Shown here in pieces: positions 20,861 through 56,958 of a DNA stretch of 64,000 bases. Location of the stretch: positions 13,983,615 to 14,047,614 of the forward strand of contig CAVNZM010000002.1 of NCBI GenBank assembly GCA_963693365.1, in the 5' to 3' direction. Numbering within the stretch: position 1 is the stretch's first letter; each line of letters starts with the position of its first letter. The notes under the pieces were generated by a model that was not told the origin of the DNA, ran no database searches, and saw nothing but the letters and a program-made list of their open reading frames with translations. The stretch is from Amoebidium appalachense. Lineage: Eukaryota; Protista; Ichthyosporea. The position numbers and the translations under genes are program-made.

Positions 20861-23800
20861 TTACCGATCCTGGCGGGAGGCAACCTTTGGGCCAAATCGG
20901 TCCATTGCAGATTCGCGCTGGCGCTTGAGCCACGAGCCACTCTGGTTGGCCCTGTGTGTGTGTGTGTGTGTGTGTGTGTGTGTGTGTGTGTGTGTGTGTG
21001 TGTGTGTGTGTGTGTGTGTGTGTGTGTGGTGGTGGTGATGGCAGAGCACCGTAAGGGGGGTGGGGGGAGGGGGGGGGGGGGGAGGGGGGGGAGGAGGGGA
21101 GGGGAGGGTATGGTTAGTGACACGAGGTTGCAACGAATTGCACCACAGTAGACACCAACCTCAGGCCACAACGGATTAACACACCCCTGCACGTCAACAA
21201 CACCCTTCTCCTTAACAACAGAACAAAGCATCCCAAAAAGTAAGATTTGATAGATATGGCCGATTTAGTTGGTTTCACCCACAGATATCAGTGTTGGCCA
21301 AGGGTGGGGGGGGGGGGGGGGGGGGGGGGGGGGGGGGGGTGAGCGGGAGAGTGGGCGAGTAGGTGGGTGGGTGGGTGGGTGGGTGATGGGAGCGAGGAGG
21401 GAGGGAGAAGGCAGCAAGAGCCAAAGAGGGAGGGAGAGAGGAGGCGATGAAGGGAGGGGGAGAAGAGAGGAGGGTAAGCATGTGATATAAGATGACAAAG
21501 TACCCATTCGTGATGGACACCACAATGCAGTTTGTGAAAAAAGAGCGCACACAATGCATGTGCATATATTGAAGAGGGGGGACTAGGGGGAGTGGGAGAG
21601 AGAGAAGCGAGTGAGAAAGGGGGGGGGGGGGGGGGGGGGGGGGGGGGGGGGGGGGGGGGGGGGGGGCAGAGAGTTGCGTACTGGGCAGCACGTTCACCCA
21701 TCCTCAGTTTCTCGTATCGGAGGCCCAGCTCGTACCAGGCAGCCACAATCAGCTGCTGCTCGTTCTGCCACTTGCGCTCACGCTCACGGTGTGCTTGCTG
21801 TGGGTGCGTGGGTGTGTGTCAGGGGAGGGAAAGTGTGAGGTTGGAAGCATAGGAGGGTGTTTGTGTGCGTGTGTGTGTGCCTTGTGGCCAATGTCAACAC
21901 GCGCAGAGTTGATGGAAGGCGCGCGTGTGTGTGTGTGTGTGTGTGTGTGTGTGTGTGTGTGTGTGTGTGTGTGTGTGTGTGTGTGTGTGTTTCATAAGGG
22001 AAAGCGAGAGCGAGAGGGTGAGAAAGCGAGAAAGCGAGAGAGAGACAAAGAGAGCACGCGTGTGTGCCTGTTCTTTCAGGTGTGCATGTGTATCTGTGTG
22101 TGTGTGTGTGTGTGTGTGTGTGTGTGTGTGTGTGTGTGTGTGTGTGTGTGTGTACGCGGGCGCGCATGCACACGTGTATGTGTATGCATGCTTGTAAATT
22201 CATGCGCCCGAACGTGTGTGCAGTTCCACCCACGAACCTTTAGCTGTGACAGTTCCAGATCCTTCTCGTTCACGAGGTTGCGCAAAGACAGCAACTGTGT
22301 CTCAAACTCAACACCAACACCCTGCTGCAGCTCATGCTCCAGCATCTGATTGGTCGAGGGGGATAAGACGGAATGTCAGGAATGTCCTTTAAAAACCATC
22401 ATACAGTAAGGTAATGCCTTCACATAAGGACGGCAGGAAGGCCTAGTACAACTATGGCCCAATATATGGACCTCAATGGAGTGGCAAGTACCTCCGTAGT
22501 CCTGCACCGACACGACCTACATAATCAACATCCACCAGGGTGCATGCGTGGGGATGGTGCCGTGGCAAACAAGAGAGGTGGCTGGCTGGCCTGAGACCCC
22601 CCCCCCCCCCCCCCCTCCCCCCCTTTGCGCACGTGCCCGTATGTGTATTTTCTCTCTCTCCCTCCCTCCCTCTCTCGCTGTTTATGCGTGTGAGTGTGTG
22701 CACATTCCTGTGTAAGTGTGAGTGTGTGCGCATATACGTGTATTCTCTCTCTCTCCCTCTCTCGTCCCCCCCCCCCCCCCCCCCCACCACCACCTCCGCG
22801 TCCTTCTGTTCACTCTTCTTTCTCCCCCGGCCACTCCCCCCCCCCCCCCCCCCCCCCCCCCCCAAAAAAAAAAAAACACACACACCCTGGCACCCTCCCT
22901 GTCTCCCCTTCCCCCCTCCCCCCACCCACACAGTCTCTCTTTGTCCCCCCTCCCCCCCTTCTCACACACCTTCTTGTGCTGGTCTCTCTCCTCCTCGGCC
23001 CTCTTCACTCTTGCAGTCAGTGTGTTCTTTTCCATCAGCAGCTGGTCCAACTGCACTAGAAGGTCCGCCTCACGGCTACCACCCTGCATCCTTTAAGGGT
23101 GTTAGAGATTACCATCTTTCCATGCTAAATGCACCACAGTTCCCTTTAAGTCGACTCTTAGCGGCTGTTTTGAAGCACTTCCATTCCATGCCATTACCCC
23201 GCAATGCCCTTCAAGGAGTAGATTCGTCAACACTGTTTAGATGTACCATCATGCCATGACATAAAAAAACCAACCCGCCACCAGATGTATGTTGATAGGG
23301 CAAGTATAATACCAACAACCAACCAGACAGTATCGAGAACAATAACATGTCCAAAAAAAGACGACTCACTCATTCAGGCTAAAAGCCCAAAAAATAAAAA
23401 AAACGGAGTTAAAAATGCAGTGCAGAACGTATCGAGTGCAAAGAGACAAAATAAGAGCATGGTCCTGCACATGTAACGAGATGCAAGTGTGCACACAGCG
23501 GGTGTATGCAACGTCCAGTACCTAACTGTGCGAAATTGTTCTCGAAATAAAAATAGAGAGAGAGAGAAACGATCGATTTATGGGGGTCAGAAGATAATCA
23601 AGCTTGTAAGCAACCACAAATAGAAGAAAGAGAAGATGTTTGTGGAGGCATTGTTTTGATGACTGTCTTTGCTGGCATCTGCGTGTGTACACGTGTGCAT
23701 GTGCTTGTGAACGAGTTCATGTGCGTACACATTCGCACATGCGCACATGCACACGTGTGTACGTTTGCATTTTGCGTTTGCGCGAGCGCGAGCGCGCGCG

Positions 23801-55100: not shown

Positions 55101-56958
55101 GAGGTATTCCATTTTGCACTCTCCTGTTCAAGGGGGTGAAGTGTCCTGAGGAAGGGTTTTTTTTTTTAGGGGCGGGGGGGGGGGGGGGGGGGGGGGGGGA
55201 GGACTCTTTACCAATTTGATACGACATCTATTCCTCTTTCATGGTGATATCCAAGGATTCTCCCTCTCTCTACACACACACACACACACACACACACACA
55301 CACACACACACACACACACACACACACACACATACACATACACACACACACACACACACACACACACACACACACACAACCCACCCTCCCCGCCTTCCCC
55401 CCTCCCCCCCCCCCCCCCCCCCCCCCCCCCCCCCCCCCCCCCCCCAAACACACACGTACACACACACAGTCACCTTCCCATCCCACCACTTGGGCTGCAT
55501 ACCACAACTCACACTTTTCTGGTGGGGGTGCCCAGGTCTCCTTCTCATTCTACAGTACATCTTCAGCCCCATCAACGTGTTCCTCAACTACTGCATCACT
55601 AAACTAACCCGCTACCACGAGTACCAAGCCGACGACTACGCCGTCGTATGAACATCCCCCCCCTCCTTCCCGCCCCTCCCCCTTGCGTGCCCTTTTCTCT
55701 AACTGCATTGTGTTGTCCATTGCGGACGTGTACCCCCTACTCCGTAACCCATCACCCCCCCCCCCCCCCCCCCCCCCCCCCCCCCTTCCTCGGCGAGGCG
55801 GCATGGGGGGGGGGGGGGGGGTCTGCGGTTTTTTGATTCACAGAACCTTTGCTGTTAAAACTGTTGCCTACTGCATATATCCTCTCCCGAGGTTCTTGTC
55901 CTCCCGTGTCATTGTGCATAATCATCCCCCCCTCCCCTCCCCCCCCTCCCCCCCTCCCCCCCCCCCCCCCCCCCCCCACACACACACACAAGCACACCCC
56001 TTCGTCGCCCCCCTCCCCATCCTTCTTCACACCCTCCTATTCTTTCCTCACCCCCTGCTCTTTCCGGGGCTCTGGAATCTCTCCACACCCCCTTCTTCCA
56101 CCCCCGTGTAAACCATTTGTAGGCTACCATAAATTCCGTCAATCATGTTTGCATGTTTGAATCTCGGGATTGCATGACTCTGCTCGTGCACTGGCATTTC
56201 GTGATTGTGTAATGGCCGTTTCTGATTGGTGGATTATCAGAGCTTGGGCTATGGTGCACAGCTGCAGGATGCCCTCGTCAAGCTGCAGATTGGTTTGTTC
56301 CCCCCCTCAACCCCCCCCCCCCCCCCCCCCCCCCCCCCCCTTTCCGTCCATGCCTTATGATGCAAAATTCAGAATCTCCCACCATAAGCAAACAGCCCCC
56401 TTCCGCGCTTCGTCCACCCCCCCTCTTCCCCCCCCCCCCCCCCCCCCCCCCACACACACACACACACACACATCAGTAGTACAACACACAAGTTCGCACG
56501 CGTGCACGCACACACACGGACACACACACACACACACACACACACACACACACACACACATACACACACATACACGCATTCACAAGCACGTGCACACACG
56601 GTTTCACACGGTGTGTCTGTGTGTGTACGTGTGTGTGTGTGTGACACTCGGTGCGCATGCTAGTGTGTCACACGTGATTGTGACTGATCGGACATATACC
56701 GTGATACCTGAAGATACTCAACCATTCGTGTTGCTTGCCCAAAACTACTTGCCGTTTATAATACGCCTAAGGTGTGGTATCTGTTTAAGAAGACTGTGCA
56801 TGCTATTGTGTATGGTACTTACGTAAGACTTGTACAGGGAACCTGGGCAACATGAACCCTGACCCATGGTACAGCGAGTACCACTACAGCCACCCCCCTT
56901 GGTTGAGCGCCTGCAGGCCATGAGAGACACTATGGCTAAAGGGAAGAAGGCCCAATAG
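46194..56958 (+). CDS. STE24: CAAX prenyl protease 1 (peptidase M48, Ste24/ZMPSTE24), 12 exons
   Basis: Exons 46194-46351, 48070-48136, 48923-49012, 50448-50560, 51174-51237, 51962-52101, 52632-52748, 53510-53705, 54718-54865, 55536-55645, 56241-56292, 56838-56958. Motifs [75 protein letters not shown] and a terminal KKAQ (KKXX). Two one-base homopolymer discrepancies (53705-07 and 56893-98). Confidence 0.93.
46921..47445 (+). repeat. Two copies of the sense-oriented intronic element in STE24 intron 1
   Basis: 46921-47020 shares TATGTGTG.TTTGCACTCTGCATTGTGTTGTCC.TTA with the Hook copy at 36.2 kb. 47335-47445 ends GTACTTCGTACTGTGTTCCGCATTCAAA. Confidence 0.8.

What the first reader, a model, noticed from the sequence alone, without database searches (positions are those of the whole stretch)
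21485..55755. A ~110-nt element found only in introns and always in the host gene's sense orientation
Seen: about ten diverged copies of consensus GATGGG.TCTGCTT...TATGTGTG.TTTGCACTCTGCATTGTGTTGTCC.TT..TGTGTACTTCGTAC....CGCATTCAAA, usually bounded by C-runs. Hook (minus) copies are at ~21485-21570, 24391-24496, 24970-25060 and 36205-36310. STE24 (plus) copies are at ~46921-47020, 47335-47445, 51100-51144, 51830-51880, 53890-53946 and 55685-55755. Orientation flips with the gene, and I saw none in intergenic DNA. No TIRs, poly(A) or Pol III boxes are evident. Two copies end in a branch-point-like CTAAT/CTAAC upstream of an acceptor. Inference: an undescribed intron-resident element acting at RNA level, such as a splicing/branch module, an intron-encoded small RNA, or a mobile element selected for sense orientation in introns.
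Basis: partly seen in the sequence, partly recalled or inferred. Interest (0 to 1): 0.78.

Follow-up and report, generated by a model that had tools for sequence, protein, structure and literature searches.

The report
Poly-C-homing mini mobile element in introns
A ~105-letter repeat sits between runs of C in the introns of two genes of the animal relative Amoebidium, always in the gene's direction, and has very many near-identical relatives in sequencing data, so it is likely a small jumping element that homes on C-runs and likely persists in the orientation that adds the fewest splice signals.

Summary
The repeat is real. Nine of the ten listed copies hold up, one (51100) does not, and a new one lies at 27034-26981. 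All 10 firm copies are intronic, in sense, and end in a C-rich tract. The host is Amoebidium. Public runs show a young, very high-copy dispersed family: summed contig depth about 7e5 over one copy against 15-24 on unique intron of the same run, with only two variable sites. Relatives have a sharp 5' end and C-runs on the same strand at both ends. There is no Rfam match, no stable fold, no covariation and no fixed distance to splice sites, so a small RNA or dedicated splicing module is unlikely. It works like the non-autonomous Chlamys Penelope-like elements of Chlamydomonas (short, (C)n target, intronic), but no autonomous partner was found, so membership is open. C-run supply only partly explains the sense-only pattern (P about 0.01, post hoc, two genes). 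The sense strand is nearly AG-free, so purging of antisense copies is likely. Three copies carry their intron's only branch-point motif. The genome-wide orientation test could not be run.

The parts
24393..24495 (-). Full-length young copy (subfamily A), Hook intron 24531-24081, 36 nt after the donor, C-runs both sides
   Evidence: only 2 sites vary in 3% or more of laid depth
36207..36310 (-). Full-length older copy, Hook intron 36764-36184, ends 23 nt before the acceptor
   Evidence: 79% identical to the 24495 copy
36206..36210 (-). CTAAT, the only YTRAY motif in the last 100 nt of its intron (likely branch point, inferred)
26981..27034 (-). New 3'-half copy, Hook intron 27657-26942, ends 39 nt before the acceptor
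   Evidence: E 4.5e-4 with an HMM not trained on it
26980..26984 (-). CTAAC, the only YTRAY motif in the last 100 nt of its intron (likely branch point, inferred)
24976..25060 (-). Diverged copy with a subfamily-B-like 5' part, mid-intron (Hook 25514-24611)
   Evidence: blastn E 1e-5 to the 47335 copy; weak in leave-one-out
21477..21570 (-). Older copy lacking the extreme 5' end, Hook intron 21681-20952
   Evidence: leave-one-out 29.1 bits
46919..47023 (+). Full-length older copy, STE24 intron 1, with a perfect 7-nt terminal inverted match (46919-46925 / 47017-47023)
47335..47440 (+). Subfamily B copy, STE24 intron 1, C-runs both sides
   Evidence: summed depth 3-4e5 in run X1 against 15-24 on flanking unique intron
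51830..51880 (+). 3'-half copy, STE24 intron 51238-51961; its CTAAC at 51874-51878 is the only YTRAY in the last 100 nt, with no AG between it and the acceptor
53889..53945 (+). 3'-half copy close to subfamily B, C-runs both sides, STE24 intron 53707-54717
   Evidence: matches the loose-end majority
55686..55753 (+). 5'-shortened older copy, 40 nt after the donor of STE24 intron 55646-56240
   Evidence: leave-one-out 19.6 bits
52149..52186 (+). Weak candidate: 3' fragment between C-runs, intronic, sense; not counted
   Evidence: 4.6 bits, below the null maximum of 9.9
51100..51144 (+). Listed copy, not confirmed; not counted
   Evidence: 1.8 bits, no C-rich flanks
20860..37919 (-). Host gene Hook, 21 coding exons
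   Evidence: P0006 tblastn; Pfam HOOK and HOOK_N
46194..56958 (+). Host gene STE24 (CAAX prenyl protease), 12 coding exons
   Evidence: P0001, EukProt Amoebidium record

Best explanation
This is a ~105-nt high-copy dispersed repeat of Amoebidium that lies between same-strand C-runs, and it is likely a non-autonomous retroelement copied by target-primed reverse transcription into (C)n/(G)n tracts, in the manner of Chlamys-type Penelope-like elements. Steps: (1) shown: copies have sharp ends and one fixed orientation to the C-run; (2) inferred: an RT-endonuclease supplied in trans nicks the G strand and primes on the element RNA's 3' end, which fixes orientation and leaves 3'-anchored, 5'-shortened copies; (3) inferred: sense intronic copies ride in pre-mRNA, so no promoter is needed; (4) partly shown: sense C-tracts outnumber sense G-tracts in these introns 44 to 26, which gives part of the bias; (5) inferred: the rest comes from purging of antisense copies, which would add many AG acceptors and stronger donors, while the sense strand is nearly AG-free; (6) inferred: copies that land near an acceptor can take over the branch point.
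For: Copy number and youth: 1238, 1005 and 2696 contigs laid on one 241-nt stretch in DNA runs X1, X5, X6; summed depth 7-9e5; only 2 sites with 3% or more other letters. Unique intron depth in X1 is 15-24. A second subfamily shows the same pattern. Polarity: 72, 64 and 113 contigs leave the reference at the same 5' base into TGA plus a C-run, and loose ends past the 3' end are C-runs. Shortening: all 10 window copies keep the 3' part, and four align to the young copy only from about position 46-48; 6 of the 9 joints listed keep the 3' part and jump to the 5' C-run, and one go-back joint (24495 to 24392, runs X1 and X6) fits tandem copies. Splice neutrality: 4 AG in 823 nt of sense copies against about 30 expected from intron background, and 73 AG on the other strand; best donor score higher in antisense for 8 of 10 copies. 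Precedent: Chlamys-9/N4 made insertions of median 128 bp, 5'-truncated, all intronic, at (C)n (PMC9977147 section 7); non-autonomous Chlamys form head-to-tail copies (PMC8557442 passages); Alu shows a sense bias near exons ascribed to antisense acceptors (PMC3088655 section 8).
Against: No autonomous partner, empty site, target duplication or insertion polymorphism was seen; the window's own RT is a LINE-type ORF with no similarity to the element. Five of the six shortening joints have unknown letters between. The window's short copies start at nearly the same point, which fits a short subfamily as well as random truncation. The ends show a weak inverted match (7 of 8 in one copy, 6 of 8 in four, 5 of 8 in five), which a DNA transposon would also give. 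Summed contig depth is not a copy number (tool caution). The AG and donor counts come from related copies and are not independent; the donor matrix rests on 31 donors, a few misplaced by 1-4 nt. Chlamys elements were not reported from holozoans in the section read.
Confidence: 0.5

Rival explanations
1. It is a non-autonomous DNA element with polar targeting of C-runs: a Crypton-like element recombining at a CCC core, a HUH (Replitron/Helitron-like) element, or a MITE with decayed 8-nt inverted ends.
For: Sharp 5' end and fixed length; terminal inverted match, perfect over 7 nt in one older copy; small subterminal hairpins in single-stranded DNA folding; HUH elements and Cryptons insert in one orientation at short targets (PMC10288648 passages; PMC9977147). 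An ssDNA mechanism acting on the displaced strand of transcribed genes would explain gene and strand preference directly (inference).
Against: The two young subfamilies have the weakest inverted match (5 of 8). A symmetric DDE transposase would give both orientations to the C-run, which the loose ends do not show. Shortening is one-sided. Hairpins are no better than shuffles (z about -1.2) and show no covariation. No CTRR end in the young copies.
Confidence: 0.27
2. It is a mobile element as above, but the intron-only, sense-only pattern is set at insertion (transcription-coupled access to the target) or is largely a small-sample effect, with no selection on splice signals.
For: De novo Chlamys insertions were all intronic with selection nearly absent. 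The window test is post hoc, on two genes; only the 27034 copy was found independently. 0 copies at 38 non-genic C-tracts (P 0.014) is not explained by selection on splicing.
Against: 0 copies at 26 antisense tracts against 10 at 44 sense tracts (P 0.010); the near absence of AG on the sense strand needs a reason.
Confidence: 0.3
3. It is a dedicated splicing or branch-point module spread through introns for function.
For: 3 of 10 copies hold the only YTRAY in the last 100 nt of their intron, inside an AG-free zone; AG-free sense strand.
Against: Seven copies end 312-1048 nt from the acceptor, one intron has two copies and 22 of 31 introns have no firm copy; the young subfamilies end CAAAC, not CTAAC; 14 of 31 introns have a CTRAY within 60 nt of the acceptor, 12 of them without the element.
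Confidence: 0.07
4. It is an intron-encoded small RNA (snoRNA-, miRNA- or snRNA-like), or a retroposed copy of one.
For: Sense intronic location; element contigs are deep in RNA-type runs (depth 3522 against 65 for the Hook mRNA contig in X7).
Against: None of 125 Rfam matches at E<=1 is a credible match to a copy; z-scores -1.4 to +1.3 in 12 folds; no consensus pairs; covariation at shuffle level; no paired C/D boxes, no ACA tail, no Sm site. Depth summed over many intronic copies can come from pre-mRNA.
Confidence: 0.08

Closest known systems
Chlamys-N4_cRei / Chlamys-9_cRei, Penelope-like elements of Chlamydomonas reinhardtii (PMC9977147, PMC8557442)
   Same: Short insertions (median 128 bp there), (C)n target, intronic, 3'-anchored with 5' shortening, tandem copies, no discernible target duplication, no canonical hammerhead.
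   Different: Here the whole unit is ~105 nt with a sharp 5' end; host is a holozoan; no autonomous partner identified; sense-only pattern, AG-free strand and branch-point use are not mentioned in the passages read.
Alu near human exons (PMC3088655)
   Same: Short non-autonomous element with a sense bias ascribed to cryptic acceptors on the antisense strand.
   Different: No Pol III boxes or poly(A) tail here; target is (C)n; bias seen at all intron positions, 10 of 10.
Replitrons and Cryptons (PMC10288648, PMC9977147)
   Same: Orientation-specific insertion at a short target; direct repeats or the target at both ends; non-autonomous forms.
   Different: [quoted passage not shown]
Introner elements (recalled, no call)
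   Same: Repeated, intron-only, sense-only sequence with a branch-point motif near the 3' end.
   Different: Introners are whole introns with their own GT and AG; this element has neither end and floats inside larger introns.

Membership tests
Non-autonomous Chlamys/Naiad PLE | Insertion at (C)n or (CA)n | tested here: met
   C-rich tract after 10 of 10 copies; C-run loose ends at both ends in three DNA runs
Non-autonomous Chlamys/Naiad PLE | Frequent 5' truncation with intact 3' end | tested here: inconclusive
   3' part kept in all 10 copies and 6 of 9 joints, but start points cluster and 5 joints have unknown letters between
Non-autonomous Chlamys/Naiad PLE | Partial tandem (pLTR) or head-to-tail copies | tested here: inconclusive
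   One go-back joint 24495 to 24392 in X1 and X6, spacer unknown; no tandem pair in the window
Non-autonomous Chlamys/Naiad PLE | 3' end shared with an autonomous element encoding N-terminal GIY-YIG plus RT | not testable with these tools
   No genome held; no outside loci found
Retrozyme / canonical PLE | Hammerhead core CUGANGA followed by GAAA | tested here: not met
   No GAAA on the sense strand of any copy; the family 5' end reads CTGAGGA but has no partner motif
tRNA-derived SINE | Pol III A and B boxes, tRNA head | tested here: not met
   No box match on either strand (motifs recalled); no tRNA
SINE | 3' end shared with a partner LINE | tested here: inconclusive
   No match to the two LINE pieces in the window; other LINEs of the genome unseen
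MITE (DDE) | Terminal inverted repeats of 10 nt or more | tested here: not met
   Best 7 nt perfect in one copy; 5 of 8 in young copies
MITE (DDE) | Target-site duplication of fixed length | tested here: inconclusive
   Masked by C-runs; no empty site obtained
Helitron | 5' TC, 3' CTRR and a GC-rich subterminal hairpin (recalled) | tested here: not met
   CTRR end in 2 of 10 older copies only; hairpin is 4 bp
snoRNA / miRNA | Rfam match, boxes, conserved structure | tested here: not met
Introner | Element equals the whole intron, GT to AG (recalled) | tested here: not met
   Copies lie 36-983 nt from donors and 23-1048 nt from acceptors

The most novel reading that the evidence does not exclude
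A splice-silent intron parasite: a 105-nt promoterless element that uses host pre-mRNA as its transposition intermediate, is steered by transcription into sense-strand poly(C) tracts, has shed AG from its sense strand, and has rewritten branch points in thousands of introns of an animal relative, driven by the first Chlamys-type Penelope-like element in holozoans or by an unknown poly(C)-targeting enzyme.
Probability: 0.2. Interest if true: 0.72.

Novelty: new member of a known kind. Interest (0 to 1): 0.42.

Why it matters
Amoebidium has about 50% TE content (PMC11244446 section 6). A family this abundant that lands in polypyrimidine tracts would be a major force on its introns. It offers a clean test of targeting against selection, because target supply per strand is countable and copies of many ages exist. 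It could also show, at scale, mobile DNA donating branch points. If the partner is a Chlamys-type element, that clade's range would extend to holozoans, and a homopolymer-specific retrotransposition system would be available to study.

Tried and rejected
Whole genome: none held. Rfam at E<=1: 125 matches, nearly all on simple repeats, none credible for a copy. tRNA: 0. Exact-pattern scans for outside copies: 0 in metagenome contigs, 0 in viral contigs (39, 40), 0 in prokaryote genomes (65). Earlier findings: nothing by place, sequence or words. Run search: no RNA holder listed as such, which says nothing on expression; X7 behaves as RNA since a contig splices. Empty-site test through the exon anchor at 24532-24611: DNA runs gave no cover of the exon, so no result; X5's lack of cover on unique intron proves nothing. 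Joints skipping 101-109 nt over the 46921 copy have unknown letters between and sit in C-rich flanks; not taken as empty sites. Structure: RNA and DNA folds, alifold and pair counts negative; one apparent compensatory pair in the 5' hairpin is at shuffle level. Coding role: frames differ between copies (read from sequence). Papers: no paper holds Amoebidium with Penelope; the Amoebidium genome paper's main text has no hit for SINE, MITE, simple repeat or small RNA and its two supplements none for Penelope, Helitron or SINE; its repeat library, figures, Dfam and Repbase were not seen, so the family may exist there as an unclassified repeat.
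Full report
Host and genes. An STE24 exon is 100% identical to P0001, an EukProt record named Amoebidium parasiticum, and a Hook exon to the EukProt protein P0006. tblastn of these gave 12 STE24 and 21 Hook coding exons, hence 31 introns totalling 24.4 kb. A contig of run X7 crosses from Hook exon 24532-24611 into both neighbouring exons, confirming those two introns. 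No whole genome is held.

Is the repeat real? An HMM from 9 listed copies (51100 left out) recovers 8 of 9 in leave-one-out at 19.6-40.6 bits; the reversed window gives at most 6.8 and 20 shuffles at most 10.4. The ninth, 25060-24976, is tied in by blastn (84% over 37 nt, E 1e-5). The HMM finds a new copy at 27034-26981. The listed 51100 copy scores 1.8 bits and lacks C-rich flanks; I dropped it before all counts, and also left out the weak candidate at 52149. That leaves 10 firm copies, 68-82% identical to the 24495 copy over aligned parts except one that aligns over only 16 nt.

Place and strand. All 10 are intronic and sense, in 9 of 31 introns. They lie 36-983 nt from the donor and 23-1048 nt from the acceptor. 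Every copy is followed by a C-rich tract, and 8 of 10 are preceded by one. Introns hold C-runs on both strands: 44 tracts of 10 or more C in sense, 26 in antisense, and 38 in 29.6 kb of roughly defined non-genic DNA. Ten of ten in sense has P 0.010 given that supply, and none in non-genic tracts P 0.014. These tests reuse the copies that suggested the idea, on two genes; only 27034 is independent. They are suggestive, not proof.

What the rest of the genome looks like. On 46850-47720, summed contig depth in DNA run X1 is 15-24 on unique intron and 3-4e5 over the 47335 copy; X5 and X6 agree. On 24385-24625, 1238, 1005 and 2696 contigs were laid from X1, X5 and X6, depth reaches 7-9e5, and only two sites have 3% or more other letters. 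So the 24495 copy is close to the consensus of a young, homogeneous subfamily (A), and 47335/53889 belong to a second (B); loose ends also show an older form. Summed depth is not a copy number; allowing up to about 31-fold overlap of short contigs it implies at least about a thousand copies (inference), and the window's density scaled to the 202 Mb reported for the genus (PMC11244446) would give about 3e4. At the 5' end 72, 64 and 113 contigs leave at the same base into TGA plus a C-run; past the 3' end the loose letters are C-runs. The element is therefore a closed ~105-nt unit with one orientation to the C-run. Six of nine listed joints keep the 3' part and jump to the 5' C-run (five with unknown letters between); one fits tandem copies. 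No empty site was obtained.

Not a structured RNA. No credible Rfam or tRNA match. Twelve RNA folds have z from -1.4 to +1.3, four DNA folds -0.6 to -1.3. Alifold finds no pair, and three hand-picked hairpins score at shuffle level (224 of 500 shuffles reach the covariation score). No Pol III boxes, hammerhead partner motif, Sm site or paired sno boxes. The high depth in RNA-type runs (3522 against 65 for Hook in X7) is what many intronic copies in pre-mRNA could give.

Splice signals. The sense strand has 4 AG in 823 nt where intron background predicts about 30; the other strand has 73. YAG counts are 0-1 per copy in sense and 1-5 in antisense, and the best donor score is higher in antisense for 8 of 10. 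The copies are related, so this is roughly one observation on the consensus. In three introns the element supplies the only YTRAY in the last 100 nt, at -27, -43 and -88, with no AG downstream. The seven distant copies have no CTAAY at their 3' end. I infer secondary use as branch point; no lariat data were available. Against a dedicated role: 12 other introns have their own CTRAY near the acceptor and the young subfamilies end CAAAC.

Mechanism. Best reading (0.5): a non-autonomous retroelement inserted by target-primed reverse transcription at (C)n/(G)n, with orientation fixed by the target strand, carried in pre-mRNA, and thinned in antisense by selection. Polarity, abundance and 3' anchoring are shown; the enzyme, the RNA intermediate and selection are inferred. 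The main rival (0.27) is a polar DNA element, prompted by a terminal inverted match that is perfect over 7 nt in the 46919 copy and 5-6 of 8 elsewhere. PLE insertions often carry an inverted truncated copy at the 5' end (PMC8557442), which could leave the same trace. Whether the strand bias is set by targeting rather than selection is a separate open question (0.3).

Known relatives. The closest working model is Chlamys-9/N4 in Chlamydomonas: median 128-bp, 5'-truncated insertions, all intronic, at (C)n (PMC9977147, section 7 read; PMC8557442, passages and section 9 read). Membership is not shown, because the defining shared 3' end with an autonomous element could not be tested. Alu's sense bias near exons is the precedent for the selection step (PMC3088655, abstract and section 8). 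Replitrons were read in passages, the retrozyme preprint in abstract only, PMC5560861 in passages (intron gain in ichthyophonids, no introner hit).

Verdict. A real, young, abundant poly(C)-homing mobile element, apparently undescribed, of a kind known from green algae. Its sense-only, AG-free, branch-donating behaviour is the part worth a genome-wide test. Interest 0.42.

Noticed in passing
window 38515-39208: MITE-like element with 19-nt terminal inverted repeats (95%) whose outer ends contain TTAA; a 78% related piece lies at 16062-16235 in the opposite orientation. Both are non-genic.
   Followed up: partly
window 5002-7779 (-) and 9602-9997 (-): LINE-type RT ORF (PF00078) with a possible A-tail at 4860-4886, and a second diverged fragment; no similarity to the intron element.
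   Followed up: partly
window 44107-44616 (-): bZIP ORF between Hook and STE24, not mentioned in the finding.
   Followed up: partly
window 2253-3836 (-): Intronless choloylglycine-hydrolase-family ORF (PF02275) in an otherwise intron-rich genome; origin not examined.
   Followed up: no
window 58434-59967 (+): Three 92-94% identical cysteine-rich exons, EGF-like by eye (recalled), followed by a Thr-rich ORF at 60166-61299.
   Followed up: no
Hook and STE24 introns: Microsatellite polarity at intron ends: (GT)n in the first 40 nt of 3 of 31 and (CA)n in the last 40 nt of 5 of 31, never (GT)n at the 3' end; some acceptors follow (CA)n directly with no pyrimidine tract.
   Followed up: partly
window 53706 and about 56890-56900: STE24 differs from P0001 by one extra base before a donor and a frameshift in a C-run; likely homopolymer assembly errors, so C-run lengths in the window are uncertain.
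   Followed up: partly
window 41975-42749: Non-genic tandem repeat of about 280 nt, 75-78% identical units.
   Followed up: no
window 47102, 47596: Run X6 differs from the window at about 1-2% of unique intron letters, so it is likely another strain; it carries the same subfamilies.
   Followed up: partly
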